DNA from: a virus
Strand: one strand, 5' to 3'
Virus record (IMG/VR): IMGVR_UViG_3300029268_000006
Span: 1-64,000 of that record
DNA length: 64,000 nucleotides
In this document: positions 33,563 through 51,760 of the stretch, piece by piece
Numbering within the stretch: position 1 is the stretch's first letter
How the letters are laid out: the number at the start of each line of letters is the position of its first letter
Program-made: the position numbers and the translations under genes
Notes under the pieces: generated by a model
What the model was told of the DNA's origin: nothing
Seen by the model: the letters and a program-made list of their open reading frames with translations, nothing else
Databases searched by the model: none

Positions 33563-34558
33563 ATGATATTAGATGAATTTGTTTTAATGTATTGGAATAA
33601 TTATGATAAAAAATATTATGTTGATAAAGGATATGTTTTCACAAAAAGATTTGATAAATTTGAAGTAAATATTAAAGATTTAATGTTGTGTAGTAACTTG
33701 AAGATAAATGTTAAATGCGATATTTGTGGTAAAGAAAAACTATTATCATATCGTAAATATTTAAAAAATATGAATAATGGTGATTATTATTCTTGTTCTC
33801 AGAAATGTTCTCATAATAAATCTAAACAAACTAGTTTAAAAAATTATGGAGTGGAACATTATTTACAATCTGATATTGGTATAAAAAGAATACAAAATAC
33901 ATGTTTGGAAAGATATGGATTTGAAAATGTATCTAAAAACAATGAAATAAAAAAAAGGAAAAAACAAACTTGTTTAAAAAATTATGGAACTGAATATCCA
34001 AGTCAATCGAAAGAAATACAAGAAAGATATAAACAAACTTGTTTAAAAAAATATGGTTGCGAATGGCCTTGGTTAAATATAGAAGTGAAAGAAAAAGTTG
34101 AAAATACTATGTTAAAAAAATATGGAACAAAAAACCCAACACAAAACATAAATATAATGAATAGTATAATTCAAACACAAATAGATAAATATGGTGAAAT
34201 TTGGAAAAATCATGTTCCTAGATATAATCCAAATTCAATAATGTATTTAGATTTAATATCAAAAAAATTAAATATACCAATTCAGCATGCTTTAAATGGT
34301 GGTGAAAAGAAATTCATAAAATATTGGATAGATGGATATATTGATAAATATAATATATGTATTGAATGGGATGAAGAATGTCATAATTTAGAAAATGATA
34401 AAAAAAGAGATGAATATTTAAAAGATAATTTTAATTGTAAAATGATAAGAATTAGACAAAAAACATTTCTTAAAAATATAGATATTGAAATTGAAAAAAT
34501 AGTTGATGAAATAAATGATTATATTTTATCATTAAAATCGTATGAAAAGAAAAAATAA
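33563..34558 (+). CDS. Homing endonuclease-like (PD-(D/E)XK) with CL.KYG repeats
   Basis: YWIDGY...ICIEWDE..H nuclease motif and repeated TCL.KYG. Confidence 0.8.
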   Translation: MILDEFVLMYWNNYDKKYYVDKGYVFTKRFDKFEVNIKDLMLCSNLKINVKCDICGKEKLLSYRKYLKNMNNGDYYSCSQKCSHNKSKQTSLKNYGVEHYLQSDIGIKRIQNTCLERYGFENVSKNNEIKKRKKQTCLKNYGTEYPSQSKEIQERYKQTCLKKYGCEWPWLNIEVKEKVENTMLKKYGTKNPTQNINIMNSIIQTQIDKYGEIWKNHVPRYNPNSIMYLDLISKKLNIPIQHALNGGEKKFIKYWIDGYIDKYNICIEWDEECHNLENDKKRDEYLKDNFNCKMIRIRQKTFLKNIDIEIEKIVDEINDYILSLKSYEKKK

Positions 34559-34644: not shown

Positions 34645-36252
34645 TTAGATTTCAACTGCTTCAATCTTGTGAATCAAAGCCTGACGATCTTGTTCCAACA
34701 TTTTCATTAAATCGAAAACTTTATCTGAAAATCCAGCCAAAGCGTAAACTTTGTTTTCTGGGAATTGTAAAGTTCCGTAACCTTTAAGGTCAATAGAATA
34801 GATATGAGACTGACATTTATACTTTTTACAGTATTCTTTGAAAGTTGTTGTTGGTGCGTGATATCCAACCCAACCTTGTTCATCAGATAAAATAATTATT
34901 CTATCGTAAGCTTTATTGGCTTTTTGAAAGATACTATGGAAATTAGTACCAGCACAAGCGAACTTGTAAATGTTTGTAATAGTCATCAAACTATCAGATG
35001 GGTTATAGTTTTTGTATTCTGCATGATCATCAAATCTCATCAAATCACAACCATTACGTTTTGCGATAGCGGCTGCGAATTGTGCACCAGCTTCAGCACA
35101 ACTAATTGTACTTTTTGCTACTTTATTTGATGTCATAGAACCAGATGTATCTAAAACAACCAATGTTTCACCATCAAATTTCGGAATATTATTAAGTGAA
35201 ATTTCAGTAGCTTCGTTGATGGCAGTTAGAACTTTTCTGTATTTAGAATCCGAAGTACCAAGACTTTGTAATTCTTTGTAAGCTACAAGAAATCTGAATG
35301 GTAAAACCAATGATTTCTTAATTAACTTTTCATCAGTTAAAAGTTCACAAGCGACATCAATCATTTCCGGTGCTTGTTCAACAATGTTTCTTAGGTTACG
35401 AAGTAAAGCGAAGTAACCGATTTTACGTTCACTAAGAAGCTTTGTCCAAGCGTCTTTTTTAAGGTCTTGTTTTTCATCTTCATTGTTAGCTATTTGACCA
35501 GCTTTTGACAATTCAGATTCCCAAGTGTCTTTACTACGAAGTAAATCAATTACAAGTGCTTCAAGAGCGTGAATTTTGATAGTTCCACCTTCTTGTGATT
35601 TAACCCAATTAAGTTTCTTTTCAATTTCTTTCTTATCTTCAGCTTTCTTTTTCAAAGATAATTTCTTGTTAAGTATGTCAATGTATTCTTGACGATTAAC
35701 AGTTACCAAAAATTTATCACCCTGTGTTGGTACTGGGTGTACCAAGTTGGCAATATCAACTAATTTGAAGTCTTTACCTTCACCTCTCCATTTTCCAAGT
35801 TGGTATGCATCGAATCTTGAAATAGCTTCAGCGAAGCCTTTTTTCATCGAATTGGTAATTTTGTTGTCTTTCTTTTTCATGTAGTAAGCCAAGATTTCCA
35901 TCATATCATCCGGTCTACGGACAATTTTGTTATAGAAATTTTTTGCCCAAGGTAAGTTGGACAAATATTTAGCCAATTCAGCAGCTGTAATATGTGATAT
36001 GGATCTCATACCAAATTCATTACGGGCATAAAGTGCAGATTTAGCTACAAAATCCGGTTGTGTCTTACCAATAAGATCAATCAATCTGTTATTGGTTTGT
36101 TCTTCAGTTTCGTAAAAAGAATTCTGTACAAAGGATGTTAACAAAATAGAAACTAATTCTAATTTATTTGATTCTTTGTAGGCTTCACCACCTGCTAAGT
36201 TAACAGTTTTTTCTGCTTTGTAAGCAACTTTTTTTTCATTGAATTTTGACAT
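34645..36252 (-). CDS. rsr: Ro60 / TROVE-domain RNA-binding protein with vWA domain
   Basis: NLAGGEAY, ALYARNEFGMRS, FDAYQLGKWR, ALLRNLRNI, LPFRF and VVLDTSGSM (MIDAS). Confidence 0.95.
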   Translation of the reverse strand: MSKFNEKKVAYKAEKTVNLAGGEAYKESNKLELVSILLTSFVQNSFYETEEQTNNRLIDLIGKTQPDFVAKSALYARNEFGMRSISHITAAELAKYLSNLPWAKNFYNKIVRRPDDMMEILAYYMKKKDNKITNSMKKGFAEAISRFDAYQLGKWRGEGKDFKLVDIANLVHPVPTQGDKFLVTVNRQEYIDILNKKLSLKKKAEDKKEIEKKLNWVKSQEGGTIKIHALEALVIDLLRSKDTWESELSKAGQIANNEDEKQDLKKDAWTKLLSERKIGYFALLRNLRNIVEQAPEMIDVACELLTDEKLIKKSLVLPFRFLVAYKELQSLGTSDSKYRKVLTAINEATEISLNNIPKFDGETLVVLDTSGSMTSNKVAKSTISCAEAGAQFAAAIAKRNGCDLMRFDDHAEYKNYNPSDSLMTITNIYKFACAGTNFHSIFQKANKAYDRIIILSDEQGWVGYHAPTTTFKEYCKKYKCQSHIYSIDLKGYGTLQFPENKVYALAGFSDKVFDLMKMLEQDRQALIHKIEAVEI

Positions 36253-36300
36253 AATAATCCTTTCTTTTTTATTTTTTGTTTGTTTGTAATTTAAAGTTAA

Positions 36301-36342
36301 AAAAAAAAGGGACTATCGAAATAAATTTCAGTAGCCCCTTTT
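36301..36342 (-). terminator. Rho-independent terminator between the RNA cluster and Ro60
   Basis: Minus strand GGGGCUA...UAGUCCC followed by U8. Confidence 0.75.
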
Positions 36343-36375
36343 GGTGACATTCATTTCTGAATGTCTTAATCTATA

Positions 36376-36612
36376 GATGAAGAAAACGATAAGTGAGATG
36401 TGAAATTTAGGTTTTCACTAAAATGAAAGATTTATCATCTTTCATATTCAACCCCGATTTTGGGTTAATTGGAACCTTGACTTTTTGGATGTCAAATCCT
36501 CGGTTTTAGGTAGAACCGAACCACCTGTTATCACCTTATTGGTGATAACGTTTCTGATGCCCGAAGGCTTCTTCCATAATTGTCGAAGTAACACTCAATC
36601 TTACTATCATCA
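36376..36612 (-). ncRNA. Y-RNA-like RNA 3 (multi-hairpin, ~240 nt)
   Basis: 5'/3' ends pair; UACUUCG at 36584-36590; seven internal hairpins including two perfect 9-bp stems and a cUUCGg loop. Confidence 0.75.
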
Positions 36613-36621
36613 GTAAATATT

Positions 36622-36688
36622 ATAAGGAGTAAATCTAAAATAACTTTTTTTCATTTCCTACGAAGTAAGTTATTTTATCACTACCTTT
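36622..36688 (-). ncRNA. Y-RNA-like RNA 2 (minimal stem-loop)
   Basis: UAAAAUAACU/AGUUAUUUUA 10-bp helix plus AAGG/CCUU bulged helix; UACUUCG at 36661-36667. Confidence 0.65.
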
Positions 36689-36757
36689 TTTAAAAATCAT
36701 TAAAATTAAGAACGTTTGTTTTATTTATATTTCAAAAAAACATAAAAGTTTAAAAAA

Positions 36758-36865
36758 TTGTAAAGATATTTTTTTAAGAGTTTTGATAAAAAGCGACTTT
36801 TTGGTGCTTTCTATTGGAGTCGAACCAATTAGAACCGAAGTATCTCTTAAAATTGCTATTACAAC
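36758..36865 (-). ncRNA. Y-RNA-like RNA 1 with tRNA-like T-arm (YrlA-like)
   Basis: UUGUAA/UUACAA and UUUUAAGAG/CUCUUAAAA terminal helices; UACUUCG at 36836-36842; AUUGG-UUCGACU-CCAAU T-arm. Confidence 0.75.
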
Positions 36866-36955: not shown

Positions 36956-39382
36956 TTAAATATTATATTTTTTTGGCCAAAATTGTTTTTTTTGTGAATT
37001 TGGCCAAAATAATGGATTTTTATTTTCATCATCATTTTTTCTAAATGGGTCAGGTTCTCTCCAAGGATTTCGTTTAAATATTTCGTTTGAATCATCTTCT
37101 CTCCAAGGATTATTTGGTTTAATAGAATTTATTTGTGACATCACATCAACTTTATTTATGAATTGTTTTCTAGCTAATCTGAATGATTTGTAGTTTATTG
37201 TATTTTCAAGTGGTGCAGTTTCTAAGAAATTTTTAACAATTTCTTTTTCTATATCTGTTGCATTAAAGTCAATATAAGTGTCAATTATATTTTTCCAATC
37301 AATATGACTATAAATAGTTGCCAAGTTTATAATTGACATCACACAGTCATCAGTACCACTTTGAGATTTATATGTCACTTCACCATTTGCCAATTCTTTT
37401 TTGGAGAATGAACTTAATTCTATTATGGTTCCACTGTGATGTAATACCATCGCGTCTTTTTTGATACAATCTTGAAAATCTTTTATCATTAGTTTCTTGC
37501 CTTTTTCTCCACTTTTCACAAGGAAACCAACAGTTAGGTAAGTATCAGTTTCATTTTGTTTGTAACGAACAAATACCGAATCACCATAATTGTTGATATC
37601 ATTAAATACATGTTTCATATTATCTAGAAGTCTATCACCCAGATTTTTATTTTTTTCAAGAACTATTTTTACTTTTTCAGAATCGAATAATTCAAATCCT
37701 ATTAAATATAATATATGTGATATTTCATTTGCGTTATAAATATTATTTTGAAAAACACCAATTTGTTCCAATTTAAATAAATCATATTTGCTTTCATACA
37801 TTAGTCTTTTTCTATTTATAATATCTTTATCTTTCATCATTAATCTAAAAATATTTATCACAGTGTAATTTTGTGCAAGTCCTTCACCCATGTCAATTCC
37901 TATAAATATATTATAATTTTTTACTTGTCTAATATCAAATAGATCCGGTCTATTTTTTATCCATTTTAAATCTGTATAAGGAAATTTTAATTTATTTTCA
38001 AATTGTGGTATTTCTTTATATTCAAATGGTGTTTCATTATTAGTTAAACTTTCAAATATAATACTATCAAATAATAAATTTTGATCTGTTATAAATTGAA
38101 GTCCGTATTCTTGTTTGAATTTATCTTCACCACCTATAAGATTTGTTTCTTCTTCTTCCCAATTAGAAATATATGCAATTTCAGTAAAAGGAATTTCACT
38201 TTCAAATTCCATATTGTCATCTCTTGTTTCTAAATTTGTTGCAATTCTTAATGAACGGATACTGGAAATATCAGATTGAAGTGATGGGGTTATTTCATCA
38301 TCTTCGTAAAATTTAATATGATGTATAGCTATACCATCAAGTACCTTATCATAAAGTTTATAACCCAATTCATTTCTCAAATAATTCAAAACATAACCTT
38401 CAGTTAATCCGTGTTTTTTGAGTTTGTCGTCAATGAATTTTATTTTAGTATCCCTCCTACCTTTTATTTGATACCAATAAACTTTAAGTGCTTTATATGG
38501 GTTTTTATGTGGATCACCTTCTGGTAATTCGGCATCTCTTAATAATTCAAAGAATAAATTTCTACCGTCCGGGGTTGATGTAATAATAATTTTTGAATTT
38601 GTAATTGATGATACAGTTGGTACAACGGATGAATAATAAGCTCTAATTATATTATCTGGAATTTTAGCAAACTCATCGAGATATAGTAAATCTATTGTAA
38701 AACCAATGGCCGGTTCTTTGGATCTATTTTGTGTTTGTATTCTACTACCATTTTCAAAAGATAGTGATCTTTCGTTCCAGTTGTTTATACCGGCCTTTAA
38801 GTAGAATGGTAATAATTTATATATGTCTTTTATTTTTCTTATAATTTCTTTAACAGTATTAGATACGTTAGCAACAACCATAACCCCTTTATCTTTATTA
38901 AATAAAACAGTCCACAACATTACAATTGCAGCACTAACTGTATTTAAACTTAAAATATCATTTGTATAATAACTATGTTCATTGGATTGAATTGATAAAT
39001 CGAACATAGAAACTTTATAGTTTTGTTTAATAATAGATTTTATTTTTGATGGACCCCTTTTGGTTAAAACTATATCATCGTGTGTTAAATCTTTAACAAA
39101 TTTAATTATATGATTTTCACAAAAAACACCATGAACATCCGCACAATTTAATTTAATACCATTTTCCAATTTTAGTGTATAAAATGTATATGGTTGTGTT
39201 AAATTAATTTCTTCAATTGGAACAAAACCATAATCTGTTTCGACTAATAAATTTTCTAATGGTAAAAAATTTAATATTTTTTTTGTTTCATCATTTTCAT
39301 CTAAATCTATGTTTCTATATTCATAATTTTCTAATTTTTCAATTAAAAAATATATAATATTTCTTAATATTTTCTTAAACAT
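36956..39382 (-). CDS. terL: Large terminase C-terminal part with N-terminal C-intein
   Basis: Walker B LYLDEFA, ITSTPDG and RuvC IGIDMGEG; first 147 aa are intein-like, ending ILSLN/T. Confidence 0.9.
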   Translation of the reverse strand: MFKKILRNIIYFLIEKLENYEYRNIDLDENDETKKILNFLPLENLLVETDYGFVPIEEINLTQPYTFYTLKLENGIKLNCADVHGVFCENHIIKFVKDLTHDDIVLTKRGPSKIKSIIKQNYKVSMFDLSIQSNEHSYYTNDILSLNTVSAAIVMLWTVLFNKDKGVMVVANVSNTVKEIIRKIKDIYKLLPFYLKAGINNWNERSLSFENGSRIQTQNRSKEPAIGFTIDLLYLDEFAKIPDNIIRAYYSSVVPTVSSITNSKIIITSTPDGRNLFFELLRDAELPEGDPHKNPYKALKVYWYQIKGRRDTKIKFIDDKLKKHGLTEGYVLNYLRNELGYKLYDKVLDGIAIHHIKFYEDDEITPSLQSDISSIRSLRIATNLETRDDNMEFESEIPFTEIAYISNWEEEETNLIGGEDKFKQEYGLQFITDQNLLFDSIIFESLTNNETPFEYKEIPQFENKLKFPYTDLKWIKNRPDLFDIRQVKNYNIFIGIDMGEGLAQNYTVINIFRLMMKDKDIINRKRLMYESKYDLFKLEQIGVFQNNIYNANEISHILYLIGFELFDSEKVKIVLEKNKNLGDRLLDNMKHVFNDINNYGDSVFVRYKQNETDTYLTVGFLVKSGEKGKKLMIKDFQDCIKKDAMVLHHSGTIIELSSFSKKELANGEVTYKSQSGTDDCVMSIINLATIYSHIDWKNIIDTYIDFNATDIEKEIVKNFLETAPLENTINYKSFRLARKQFINKVDVMSQINSIKPNNPWREDDSNEIFKRNPWREPDPFRKNDDENKNPLFWPNSQKKQFWPKKYNI
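38942..39382 (-). mobile_element. Split intein C-fragment (TerL), 147 aa
   Basis: Contains block B (CADVH) and blocks F/G (MFDLS...YYTNDILSLN); +1 residue is Thr. Confidence 0.85.
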
Positions 39383-40520
39383 TTTTATTTTTTATTAATT
39401 TTAAAATAATAGATTTTATATATTTATTATTATTTTTCCATTCTTTTTCCCATACATGTATTAAATTGATATTTTTATTTTTACAATTATTTGTTTTATC
39501 ATTATGATAATTTTCATTTTTATAGATATTACTATGCCAATAATCACCGTTATATTCAAATGCTAAATTTAAATCTGGTAAATAAATGTCTAATTCTTTA
39601 CCATTTAATATTTTTCTATCATTTTTAATTATTACCCCTTTATAATTTTCTTTTATGAATTTAAATAATTTTCTTTCACCGTCTGATGTTAAAGAATGTT
39701 CTGGATAACATATTGTACATGTTGTTATGTTATGTGACAACCTATTATGAAATAAATTAATATTTATTTCATAATTATGTCCTTCTTCACAACAACAGAA
39801 ATATTTTTTATTTTCGTAATCTATTTTTTTAATAAATAAATATTTAGATAACATTTTTTTATTATAATATTTTTGTGTTTTTTCTTTATGTTCTGGTAAT
39901 TGTGATACATTTTCAATATTATATTTTGTTTTACATGTTTTTTTAATTTTTATAATGTTATTGTAATTTTCATTATCATATTTTTTGTTTTTTGTATTTT
40001 TCGCTTTTTCAACAAAAAATGAATTTTGTGCTGGTCTATCACAATTGTATTTTTCATTATTTGTTTTTATAGATTTTTGTAAAATTTCTTTATTTTGTTG
40101 TGGATAGTCACAATCATATTTTTCATTATTTGTTAATTTAATTTTATTTTTAATTTCTTCATTTTGAAAAACATTTTCAAATCCATAAATTTCCAAATTT
40201 GTTTTTTTACATTTATTTCTATTATTATAAGTTTTATTATTATATTTTTTTTGACATGTTAATTTGTTTTTAATGGATGAACATTTGTGACAAGTATATA
40301 AATTATATTTATTAAAATTATTATTATAACTTTGATAAGATATAATTTTTTCACATCCACAAATATCACAAATTCCTGTTATTTTAACATGTGATTTTAA
40401 TGAGACGTGTTCTATTTTTATTAAAATTTCATCATTTAAATTACAAACATAACCAAAATTTCTAAATTTTTTAATTGTTTTGTCTGCAATTTTGATGTTT
40501 ACTTCTTTTTCTTTTATCAT
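39375..40520 (-). CDS. Free-standing homing endonuclease-like gene inside terL
   Basis: ELDIYLPDLNLAFEYNGDYWHS; stop overlaps the terL-C start. Confidence 0.85.
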   Translation of the reverse strand: MIKEKEVNIKIADKTIKKFRNFGYVCNLNDEILIKIEHVSLKSHVKITGICDICGCEKIISYQSYNNNFNKYNLYTCHKCSSIKNKLTCQKKYNNKTYNNRNKCKKTNLEIYGFENVFQNEEIKNKIKLTNNEKYDCDYPQQNKEILQKSIKTNNEKYNCDRPAQNSFFVEKAKNTKNKKYDNENYNNIIKIKKTCKTKYNIENVSQLPEHKEKTQKYYNKKMLSKYLFIKKIDYENKKYFCCCEEGHNYEININLFHNRLSHNITTCTICYPEHSLTSDGERKLFKFIKENYKGVIIKNDRKILNGKELDIYLPDLNLAFEYNGDYWHSNIYKNENYHNDKTNNCKNKNINLIHVWEKEWKNNNKYIKSIILKLIKNKNV

Positions 40521-51615: not shown

Positions 51616-51760
51616 GAAATACGAAAAAAATTTAGTTCGTGCCGTAAGGAATTTTTAACTAAAAAAATTTTAAATATTTTTAAAACAAAAATGTAAAAGT
51701 GAAATATAATAAATTATATTTCAAAAAACCATTTAAGTTTAAAAAATAATTACAAATTTA

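What the first reader, a model, noticed from the sequence alone, without database searches (positions are those of the whole stretch)
36376..36612. Seven-hairpin ~240 nt RNA
Seen: stems at 36400-18, 36423-45 (9 bp perfect), 36450-66, 36477-95, 36501-18, 36527-49 (9 bp perfect) and 36559-68 (GCC-UUCG-GGC), enclosed by GAUGA/UCAUC and UAAG-UGAG/CUCA-CUUA. This is much larger than the ~100 nt Y RNAs I know. Inference: a multivalent scaffold or decoy.
Basis: partly seen in the sequence, partly recalled or inferred. Interest (0 to 1): 0.75.

Follow-up and report, generated by a model that had tools for sequence, protein, structure and literature searches.

The report
Oversized Y RNA beside phage Ro60
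This is a real, conserved 237-nt structured RNA on the minus strand, just upstream of a huge phage's Ro60 gene; it keeps the conserved "handle" of Y RNAs (the partner RNAs of Ro60) but carries seven hairpins where known bacterial Y RNAs carry a tRNA-like domain.

Summary
All seven hairpins and the terminal GAUGA/UCAUC pairing are present. The fold beats shuffles (z -4.4 to -5.7). On six distinct homologues, 30 of 67 pairs show two-sided changes, against 17 in shuffles and 10-13 in slid controls.

The RNA lies on the minus strand. It is the third of three co-oriented Y-type RNAs between the terminase gene and a Ro60/Rsr gene (TROVE + Ro60 vWA), and an intrinsic terminator follows it. The record is an incomplete huge-phage contig (132 kb, CheckV 19%).

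Its two ends form a bulged "handle": RG-U-AG-Y-RA ... stem ... UACUUCG. This handle recurs about 135 times upstream of Ro60 in 80 related phage loci, against 6 on the opposite strand. It covaries strongly in 33 short relatives. In tRNA-like relatives it aligns with Rfam YrlA, below threshold but significantly.

RNA3 itself gives no Rfam hit, has no T or D arm and holds no conserved ORF.

Best reading: a Ro60-bound Y RNA whose non-tRNA cargo acts as a scaffold. The cargo is repeated hairpins with ACC(A/U)NAA loops joined by AGGU linkers. The partner is unknown, and binding and expression are untested.

It is a new variant of a known kind. This scan has already noted oversized Y RNAs in other huge-phage genomes.

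The parts
36376..36612 (-). RNA3: the 237-nt Y-type RNA (handle plus seven-hairpin cargo)
   Evidence: Fold z -4.5 and -5.7. Six homologues show covariation. The rsr-strand MFE is lower than the reverse complement in all six.
36584..36611 (-). Handle, 5' strand: GAUGA-U-AG-U-AA-GAU-UG-AGUG-UUACUUCG, with the invariant UACUUCG at 36584-36590
   Evidence: Shared with RNA1, RNA2 and about 135 copies upstream of Ro60 in 80 loci. The same architecture covaries in 33 short relatives. It aligns with the YrlA 5' region in L086.
36376..36395 (-). Handle, 3' strand: CACU-U-AUC-G-UUUU-CU-UCAUC
   Evidence: All handle pairs are kept in 6/6 homologues. The GAU:AUC helix changes to GAG:CUC in L014 and L096 and to GAU:GUC in L102.
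36559..36568 (-). Hairpin Ha: GCC-UUCG-GGC
   Evidence: Replaced by GGCUG-GAAA-CGGCC, AACCC-UUCG-GGGUU and AAUCC-UUCG-GGAUU in homologues. The stable tetraloops exist only on this strand.
36527..36549 (-). Hairpin Hb: 9-bp GUUAUCACC/GGUGAUAAC
   Evidence: 9/9 pairs are kept in window, L011 and L012, with compensatory changes.
36500..36525 (-). Repeat unit A: UCGGUU[CUACCUAA]AACCGA. The 5' flank GGUGG (36521-36525) can pair with loop CUACC (36509-36513) as an H-type pseudoknot
   Evidence: The stem covaries: 5 of 6 pairs have two-sided changes. Flank:loop pairing is seen but is only suggestive (permutation p 0.17 by base pairs, 0.015 by energy).
36477..36499 (-). Repeat unit B: UUGAC[AUCCAAAAA]GUCAA. 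The 5' flank GGAU (36496-36499) is complementary to loop AUCC (36487-36490)
   Evidence: Stem 96.7% paired, 3 of 5 pairs with two-sided changes. GGAU:AUCC here becomes GGUU:AACC in L011.
36448..36476 (-). GGUU..AACC(C)..GGGGUUGA region with two competing helices
   Evidence: The GGUU:AACC helix is only 54% paired on the alignment. The motif AAAAU-YGGGGUUGAA is shared with the large Y RNAs of L016/L019, L024 and L026/L027.
36423..36445 (-). Hairpin Hd: 9-bp AUGAAAGAU/AUCUUUCAU
   Evidence: The sequence is replaced entirely but the hairpin is kept (GUGACUU..GAGUCAC in L011, UGACUACA..UGUAGUCA in L096). 8 of 9 pairs have two-sided changes.
36400..36418 (-). Hairpin He: GUGAAA[ACCUAAA]UUUCAC
   Evidence: 97% paired. 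Loop ACCU(A/U/C)AA is kept in all six.
36346..36365 (-). Extra hairpin GACAUUCA-GAAA-UGAAUGUC between RNA3 and the terminator
   Evidence: Absent in L011; other hairpins occupy this place in L012 and L102.
36299..36338 (-). Intrinsic terminator: GGGGCUACU..AGUCCC hairpin plus U10
   Evidence: Equivalent terminators lie at the same place in L001, L011, L012, L014, L096 and L102.
36624..36686 (-). RNA2: short Y RNA (handle with a bare loop)
36758..36865 (-). RNA1: Y RNA with a T-arm (AUUGG-UUCGACU-CCAAU) and a closed acceptor-like hairpin
   Evidence: No tRNA and no YrlA hit at E<=10.
34645..36252 (-). Ro60/Rsr gene, 535 aa
   Evidence: Pfam TROVE 2.8e-20 and vWA_Ro60 8.7e-11. PDB: phiLo phiRo60 9L5Y/9KOP 2.7e-28; also Ro60 1YVP and Rsr 2NVO.

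Best explanation
RNA3 is a Y RNA, a partner RNA of the phage-encoded Ro60.

Shown:
- It lies on the Ro60 strand, about 125 nt upstream of the gene, as the last of three tandem Y-type RNAs, and a terminator follows it.
- Its 5' and 3' ends pair into a bulged helix. The sequence and architecture of this handle (RG-U-AG-Y-RA, variable stem, UACUUCG) are the signature of a large family of RNAs found next to Ro60 genes of related phages. The tRNA-like members of that family resemble Rfam YrlA.
- Its interior is a conserved set of hairpins whose sequences drift while the pairing is kept.

Inferred:
- Ro60 binds the handle on its outer surface, as it does the bulged helix of other Y RNAs.
- The 190-nt cargo takes the place of the tRNA-like effector module of YrlA. 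It works as a scaffold that brings one or several copies of a partner to Ro60, or gates Ro60.
- The repeated unit (5-7 bp stem, loop ACC(A/U)NAA, AGGU linker) points to a multimeric or multi-copy partner. By analogy with RYPER and phage phiLo, host PNPase, a trimer, is the leading candidate. That is a guess.
- The three RNAs are probably made as one or two precursors and then trimmed.
For: Context:
- Ro60 identity of the neighbouring gene.
- Phage origin: terminase next door; IMG/VR record of 132 kb, 19% complete; the nearest annotated relative is a 634-kb uncultured phage.

Strand:
- ACTTCG occurs 135 times on the Ro60 strand against 6 on the opposite strand in the 700 nt upstream of Ro60 across 80 loci.
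- UUCG and GAAA tetraloops and G-U pairs exist only on this strand.
- MFE is lower than the reverse complement in 6/6 homologues.
- A conserved terminator follows.

Handle:
- In 33 short relatives, 89.5% of cells are paired against 69.7% shuffled. 117 cells have two-sided changes against 42.7 +/- 4.9 (0/500 shuffles), and slid controls give 23-47.
- RNA3 keeps every handle pair in 6/6 homologues, with one compensatory U-A to G-C change.

Link to known Y RNAs:
- RF02553 YrlA hits the tRNA-like members of the same handle family at E 2e-11 to 3e-2 (28-53 bits, gathering 69). The L086 alignment places the phage GGUAGUGA over the YrlA GgCgaAUG and UUAC over CUAc.
- Chen et al. 2014 define bacterial and phage Y RNAs as lying on the same strand within 4 kb of Ro60, with 5'-strand conservation (PMC4201824).

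Cargo:
- 82.3% of cells are paired against 71.9% shuffled. 30 pairs have two-sided changes against 17.1 +/- 2.4 (0/500), and slid controls give 10-13.
- The hairpin-type repeat was read.

Scaffold precedent: phiLo Yrl1 and Yrl2 lie upstream of phiRo60, bind it, and assemble with host PNPase at 1:1 and 1:2 (PMC12135203).

Oversized Y-type RNAs are common in this clade: 218-285 nt in 13 loci.
Against: - There is no evidence of expression, of ends, or of Ro60 binding.
- The published Ro60 motifs (GNCGAAN0-1G, GGUCCGA, CGAA) are not literally present in RNA3.
- RNA3 gives no Rfam hit, not even a weak one.
- The relative with the closest Ro60 (L010, 81% identity) lacks RNA3 altogether, so it is dispensable.
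- Only six distinct homologues exist, all from phages whose Ro60 is at least 70% identical, so the covariation rests on few independent events. The shuffle control ignores relatedness.
- L102 folds no better than shuffles (z -0.5).
- Only about 14-17 nt separate RNA2 from RNA3, which leaves no room for a full promoter. RNA3 may therefore never exist as a separate 237-nt species.
Confidence: 0.7

Rival explanations
1. It is a cis-acting leader of the Ro60 mRNA. The Y-like modules and the terminator just before the Ro60 ribosome-binding site form an attenuator. Ro60 binds the handles in its own leader and sets read-through, so the gene regulates itself.
For: The three modules are co-oriented with Ro60 and lie directly upstream. 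A strong terminator sits 47 nt before the start codon, and no clear promoter lies between them. The arrangement is conserved.
Against: Known Y RNAs are also encoded beside and co-oriented with Ro60. An attenuator needs no 190-nt cargo of drifting hairpins, and no tRNA-like domains as seen in sister modules. The closest relative has lost RNA3 while the terminator is kept unchanged. I saw no alternative antiterminator pairing.
Confidence: 0.1
2. It acts independently of Ro60 as a decoy or sponge. The repeated hairpins or the SD-like GGAGGU/GAGGU linkers soak up a host factor, such as a defence nuclease, an RNA chaperone, or the 30S subunit through its anti-SD. The handle serves only for stability or processing.
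For: A repeated hairpin unit with conserved ACC(A/U)NAA loops and purine-rich AGGU/GGAGGU linkers occurs in all six homologues. Multi-hairpin sponges such as CsrB/RsmZ are an established principle (my own knowledge).
Against: The handle is the best-conserved part of the RNA and is tied to Ro60 loci. The CsrA-type signature, GGA in loops, is absent: here GG lies in the linkers and CC in the loops. The loops lack U33 and R37, so they are not anticodon-loop mimics. Nothing identifies a target.
Confidence: 0.1
3. It is a precursor that is cut into several small hairpin RNAs with separate functions.
For: The RNAs are packed tightly, with 14-17 nt between RNA2 and RNA3, which implies processing of a longer transcript. 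The hairpins are discrete.
Against: The conserved pairing of the two ends, 190 nt apart, argues that the molecule works as one unit. Individual hairpin sequences are not conserved, apart from He.
Confidence: 0.06
4. It is non-functional intergenic DNA with chance or relic hairpins.
For: RNA3 is absent from L010. L102 has z -0.5.
Against: The covariation exceeds all controls. The handle is invariant across phages whose intergenic DNA otherwise diverges. The window's fold has z -5.7.
Confidence: 0.03

Closest known systems
YrlA / YrlB bacterial and mycobacteriophage Y RNAs with Rsr (Rfam RF02553; Chen et al. 2014, PMC4201824; structure preprint 10.1101/312249)
   Same: It is encoded beside Ro60 on the same strand. 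It is modular: the 5' and 3' ends pair into a Ro60-binding stem in which mainly the 5' strand is conserved, and a second module sits at the far end. Sister RNAs with the same handle in related phage loci carry true T, acceptor-like and D arms and hit the YrlA model.
   Different: RNA3 has no T or D arm and no YrlA hit. It is about twice as long (237 nt against a 114-position model). Its cargo is seven hairpins with a repeated ACC-loop unit. The handle motif is RGUAGYRA...UACUUCG rather than GNCGAAN0-1G.
Thermus phage phiLo Yrl1 and Yrl2 with phiRo60 (PMC12135203; PDB 9KOP, 9L5Y)
   Same: These are phage-encoded Y-like RNAs directly upstream of a phage Ro60. This Ro60's best solved relative is phiRo60. 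They were shown to scaffold phiRo60 and host PNPase.
   Different: Per that paper, the phiLo RNAs are small stem-bulge-stem RNAs with one or two hairpins and a CGAA motif. RNA3 has a different motif and a large multi-hairpin cargo. Nothing has been tested biochemically for RNA3.
Metazoan Y RNAs and D. radiodurans Yrn1 (RYPER)
   Same: The Ro60 site is a bulged terminal helix, with a single-nucleotide bulge on the 5' strand and a larger bulge on the 3' strand. The loop and stem-loop end binds effectors: ZBP1 in mammals, PNPase KH/S1 domains in Deinococcus.
   Different: Those RNAs are 84-121 nt with one internal loop. RNA3 lacks the GGUCCGA helix. It is a bacteriophage RNA ending at a bacterial-type terminator.
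Oversized Y RNAs of other huge phages, noted earlier in this scan (e1-5878503, e1-5858256) and seen here in L001 and L019-L059
   Same: They have the same handle and the same position upstream of Ro60, with 218-285 nt and many hairpins. The L016/L019, L024 and L026/L027 subgroup shares the AAAAU-YGGGGUUGAA ... RACCUAAA sub-motif with RNA3.
   Different: The cargo is otherwise not alignable: nhmmer with the RNA3 interior finds only L011. The closing helices also differ (GCAAACA:UGUUUGC there).

Membership tests
Y RNA (Ro60-associated RNA, general definition) | Encoded near the Ro60 gene (within about 4 kb) on the same strand | tested here: met
   RNA3 ends 124 nt upstream of the Ro60 start, on the same strand.
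Y RNA (Ro60-associated RNA, general definition) | 5' and 3' ends pair into a long stem that holds a conserved bulged helix | tested here: met
   Handle pairs are kept in 6/6 homologues with one compensatory change. The same architecture covaries in 33 short relatives.
Y RNA (Ro60-associated RNA, general definition) | Published Ro60-binding sequence on the 5' strand (GGUCCGA; GNCGAAN0-1G; CGAA) | tested here: not met
   RNA3 reads GAUAGUAAGA ... UUACUUCGAC, which contains none of these motifs. In L086 the YrlA model aligns the phage GGUAGUGA to GgCgaAUG, so a diverged equivalent is plausible but not shown.
Y RNA (Ro60-associated RNA, general definition) | Physically bound by Ro60 | not testable with these tools
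   Needs EMSA or RIP.
Y RNA (Ro60-associated RNA, general definition) | Second module of loops or stem-loops at the far end | tested here: met
   Seven hairpins, supported by covariation.
YrlA (Rfam RF02553) | Scores at or above the gathering threshold (69 bits) | tested here: not met
   No hit for RNA3 even at E<=10. Handle relatives in other loci reach 28-53 bits.
YrlA (Rfam RF02553) | tRNA-like domain: T arm, D arm and closed acceptor-like stem | tested here: not met
   ARAGORN finds nothing. RNA3 has no GGUUCGAAUCC-type T loop and no GUAGCUCAGUUGGUAGAGC-type D arm. The T-loop-like GGUGG-UUCGGUU-CUACC is not kept in L011.
tRNA anticodon-arm mimic hairpins (noted on phage Y RNAs elsewhere in this scan) | 5-bp stem, 7-nt loop with U33 and purine 37 | tested here: not met
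   The 7-nt loops read ACCAUAA, ACCACAA, UCCUAAG and ACCUAAA. Position 33 is C, not U.
CsrB/RsmZ-type protein sponge | Many GGA motifs displayed in hairpin loops | tested here: not met
   GG lies in the linkers between hairpins, and the loops carry CC.

The most novel reading that the evidence does not exclude
The cargo is an array of two to four copies of one small fold: a hairpin whose ACC loop pairs with the AGGU linker before it, forming a mini-pseudoknot. The array docks several subunits or copies of one host machine onto a single Ro60 ring. Candidates are the three KH/S1 arms of PNPase, or 30S subunits through the SD-like GGAGGU linkers. That would make it a multivalent Ro60 RNP unlike any described Y RNP, and cargo swapping on a common handle would be how huge phages retarget Ro60.
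Probability: 0.15. Interest if true: 0.75.

Novelty: new variant of a known kind. Interest (0 to 1): 0.5.

Why it matters
The RNA module of a Y RNA decides what Ro60 does. So far only tRNA-like (YrlA) and small-loop effector modules are described.

A conserved Ro60 handle carrying a 190-nt multi-hairpin cargo shows that the effector module is exchangeable. In the same locus, sister RNAs carry a T-arm module or a bare loop on the same handle, and a near relative has lost the large RNA. Phages therefore field several Ro60 RNPs at once.

This gives natural variants for asking what Y RNA cargo binds and what Ro60 does during infection. It also defines a handle signature, absent from Rfam as such, that can find many more Y RNAs in viral metagenomes.

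Tried and rejected
- Rfam at gathering threshold on the whole window, and at E<=10 on the intergenic region: only chance-level hits.
- ARAGORN: no tRNA or tmRNA.
- blastn of the intergenic region against GenBank phages: nothing.
- nhmmer with the RNA3 interior against all fetched loci: only L011. The cargo cannot be followed by sequence.
- Coding: the longest open frames differ in strand and frame among the six homologues, so there is no conserved ORF.
- Pseudoknot hypothesis (5' linker pairs with the loop): own flank against permuted flanks gave p 0.17 by Watson-Crick count and p 0.015 by duplex energy, and the 3' flank does about as well as the 5' flank. I keep it only as a possibility.
- Long-range ACUUCG:YGGGGU pairing suggested by RNAalifold: ACUUCG never varies, so it cannot be tested, and the partner is one of the generic AGGU-type linkers.
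- A third match to the handle pattern inside the Ro60 CDS (35409-35434): it arises from the codons of the conserved KIGYFAL motif. Only 8 of 56 distinct loci keep ACTTCG there and the 5' box is not kept, so it is coincidence.
- Promoter: a TATAAT lies 7 nt before the first G of RNA3 (36619-36624, minus strand), but it is not conserved in L011, L012 or L014. The consensus scan found no promoter there.
- Pfam on ten neighbouring ORFs at 25.5-33 kb: no RNA-repair family detected at E<=0.01.

Full report
**Observation**

The region 36376-36612 lies in a 703-nt gap between two minus-strand genes. Both strands fold far better than dinucleotide shuffles: z -4.44 on the plus strand and -4.53 on the minus strand, and -5.7 in my own shuffles. 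The GCC-UUCG-GGC hairpin reads that way only on the minus strand.

**Context**

- The gene immediately downstream on the minus strand (34645-36252) is a Ro60/Rsr orthologue. Pfam gives TROVE 2.8e-20 and Ro60 vWA 8.7e-11. Its best solved relative is the Ro60 of Thermus phage phiLo (2.7e-28), followed by vertebrate Ro60 and Deinococcus Rsr.
- The upstream gene is a terminase large subunit.
- The window is the first half of a 132-kb IMG/VR virus record that CheckV rates 19% complete.
- The nearest annotated relative of the Ro60 is in a 634-kb uncultured phage. This is therefore a huge phage.

**Strand and transcription unit**

On the minus strand the RNA is followed by a GAAA-capped hairpin and then by a strong intrinsic terminator, a GGGGCUACU...AGUCCC hairpin plus U10, 47 nt before the Ro60 start. 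Equivalent terminators sit at the same place in the relatives. In all six homologues the Ro60-strand fold is 3-10 kcal/mol more stable than its reverse complement, as expected from G-U pairs and UUCG/GAAA tetraloops.

**Three Y-type RNAs**

A close relative (L004/L011, Ro60 79% identical) has a homologous intergenic region. That alignment shows three modules. Each has paired ends and the heptamer UACUUCG just after the 5' strand.

- RNA1 (36758-36865) has a T-arm and a closed acceptor-like hairpin.
- RNA2 (36624-36686) is a short stem-loop.
- RNA3 is the finding.

**The handle family**

I fetched 80 related Ro60 loci from IMG/VR. ACTTCG occurs 135 times on the Ro60 strand in the 700 nt upstream of the gene, against 6 times on the other strand. 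It is nearly always preceded by RGUAGYRA and a short variable stem.

For 33 short members the consensus structure is a four-pair stem, a bulged U, two pairs, a mismatch, two pairs, a 3-4-nt 3' bulge and a 10-pair variable stem. It is 89.5% paired against 69.7% in shuffles. It has 117 two-sided changes against 43 +/- 5, and slid controls give 23-47.

The handle of RNA3 has the same architecture. Every pair is kept in six homologues, and GAU:AUC becomes GAG:CUC in two of them.

In the 132-kb record a strict form of the handle pattern matches only RNA1, RNA3 and one place inside the Ro60 CDS, all on the Ro60 strand. RNA2 escapes it at one degenerate position. The CDS match is explained by the codons of a conserved protein motif.

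**Link to known Y RNAs**

Rfam's YrlA model (RF02553) gives significant but sub-threshold hits (28-53 bits, gathering 69) to the members of this family that carry T, acceptor-like and D arms. In L086 the full-length alignment puts the phage GGUAGUGA over the YrlA Ro60-motif region and UUAC over the conserved CUAc. That CUAc holds the kink dinucleotide of the YrlA crystal structure.

Chen et al. 2014 defined bacterial and phage Y RNAs by exactly this genomic relation to Ro60 and by 5'-strand conservation. The handle is therefore a diverged Y RNA Ro60-binding module. RNA3 itself gets no Rfam hit at E<=10 and no tRNA-like call.

**RNA3 homologues and covariation**

DNA pattern scans of IMG/VR and JGI metagenomes added L096 and L102, plus the more distant L104. 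This gives six distinct RNA3 sequences of 220-268 nt, taking L014 to the end of its handle.

On the plain MAFFT alignment (A4), a 67-pair structure derived from the window gives these figures:

| Measure | Observed | Shuffled | Slid controls |
|---|---|---|---|
| Cells paired | 82.3% | 71.9% | 39-51% |
| Pairs with two-sided changes | 30 | 17.1 +/- 2.4 (0/500) | 10-13 |
| Covariation score | 0.36 | 0.185 | 0.10-0.15 |

Hairpins Hb, unit A, unit B, Hd and He carry most of the signal. The GGUU:AACC helix is poorly kept. The sample is small and related, so these numbers are supportive, not a probability.

There is no conserved ORF.

**Anatomy of the cargo**

Besides simple hairpins (a tetraloop hairpin, two 9-bp hairpins and He), the cargo holds 2-4 copies of one unit. 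The unit is a 4-7-bp stem with a loop that begins (A/U)ACC(A/U) and ends A-rich, flanked by (A)GGU(U) linkers that are often GGAGGU or GAGGU. The number of units varies: two in the window, four in L096, L012 and L102.

The linker before a hairpin can pair with its loop: GGUGG:CUACC and GGAU:AUCC in the window, and GGUU:AACC at the same place in L011. That would make H-type pseudoknots. The permutation test is only suggestive (p 0.17 and 0.015), and the 3' linker fits about as well.

The loops are not anticodon-like or T-loop-like, and the GG/CC layout is the reverse of CsrB-type sponges.

**Evolution**

- The relative with the closest Ro60 (L010, 81%) lacks RNA3, yet it is nearly identical to L102 downstream of it. 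RNA3 is therefore gained or lost as a unit, plausibly by recombination between tandem handles.
- Phages whose Ro60 is about 50% identical carry other oversized Y-type RNAs of 218-285 nt on the same handle.
- One subgroup shares a short sub-motif with RNA3, but the cargos are otherwise not alignable.
- This scan had already noted oversized Y RNAs in other huge-phage genomes.

**Mechanism**

By homology of the handle and by context, the phage Ro60 most likely binds RNA3. The cargo takes the place of the effector module.

Precedents:
- Deinococcus Yrn1 tethers Rsr to PNPase through its loop end.
- The two small phiLo Y-like RNAs scaffold phiRo60 with host PNPase at 1:1 and 1:2 and damp its activity.

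A repeated hairpin unit suggests a multimeric or multi-copy partner, and PNPase is the leading guess. The steps that are shown are position, strand, handle homology and a conserved fold. The steps that are inferred are transcription and processing, Ro60 binding, scaffold function and the identity of the partner.

**Literature**

In the held library I found no paper that describes Y RNAs of this size or this handle motif.

Noticed in passing
window 36758-36865 (-): RNA1 has the same handle and UACUUCG, then a good T-arm (AUUGG-UUCGACU-CCAAU) and a 9-bp closed hairpin (AUAGAAAGC..GCUUUUUAU), but no D arm. It is conserved in L010-L014 and L046. It gets no tRNA or YrlA hit at E<=10.
   Followed up: partly
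window 36624-36686 (-): RNA2 is a 63-nt short Y RNA with the handle and a bare loop. It belongs to a well-covarying family of at least 33 short RNAs upstream of phage Ro60 genes (alignment A6), many with a GAAAAAACAC box opposite UACUUCG.
   Followed up: yes
L010:1775-2000 against L102:560-1075: The phage with the closest Ro60 lacks RNA3 but is nearly identical downstream of it. This is a presence/absence polymorphism, consistent with recombination between tandem handles.
   Followed up: partly
L001:2625-2909 and 12 further loci (L020-L059): Huge phages with about 50% identical Ro60 carry a different oversized Y-type RNA of 218-285 nt. It is closed by GCAAACA:UGUUUGC and has the conserved boxes GGUGAAAAAGUCCG and GCAAAGUUUCGGGAGAAUUCUUUGU.
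   Followed up: partly
L086:3444-3828, L015:1519-1593, L055 and L050: Canonical tRNA genes and partial tRNA hits sit among or next to the Y-type RNAs in several related Ro60 loci. L055:1423-1485 and L050:1825-1888 match tRNA model positions 5-66, directly after a handle.
   Followed up: no
window 36722-36736 (-) and 51711-51747 (-): A conserved AT-rich block between RNA1 and RNA2 contains TATAAATA, which by my own recollection is like the T4 late promoter. A 34-nt near-copy lies at 51714-51747. Loose matches to TTTGAAATATAAATA number 16 in the window against 8.5 +/- 2.4 expected. It may be a phage promoter that drives RNA2 and RNA3.
   Followed up: partly
window 36956-39382 (-): The terminase large subunit ORF of 808 aa has a weak intein-splicing hit (E 5e-4, below the Pfam cut-off) besides Terminase_6N.
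   Followed up: no
window 33563-34558 (+) and 39375-40520 (-): Two DUF7487 paralogues flank the Ro60/terminase block.
   Followed up: no
window 35409-35434 (-): The handle 5' pattern (UAGUGA-N12-GGUUACUUCG) also occurs inside the Ro60 CDS. It arises from the codons for SERKIGYF and is not conserved at synonymous sites in relatives.
   Followed up: yes
L104:2310-2525 (+): A more distant RNA3-like molecule of about 215 nt lies on a 2.6-kb metagenome contig. Its ends are AGUAGUGAUAGUAAGAGGUGUGAUACUUCG ... CACUCACUGCUCGUCUUCUUCAG and its cargo is different.
   Followed up: no
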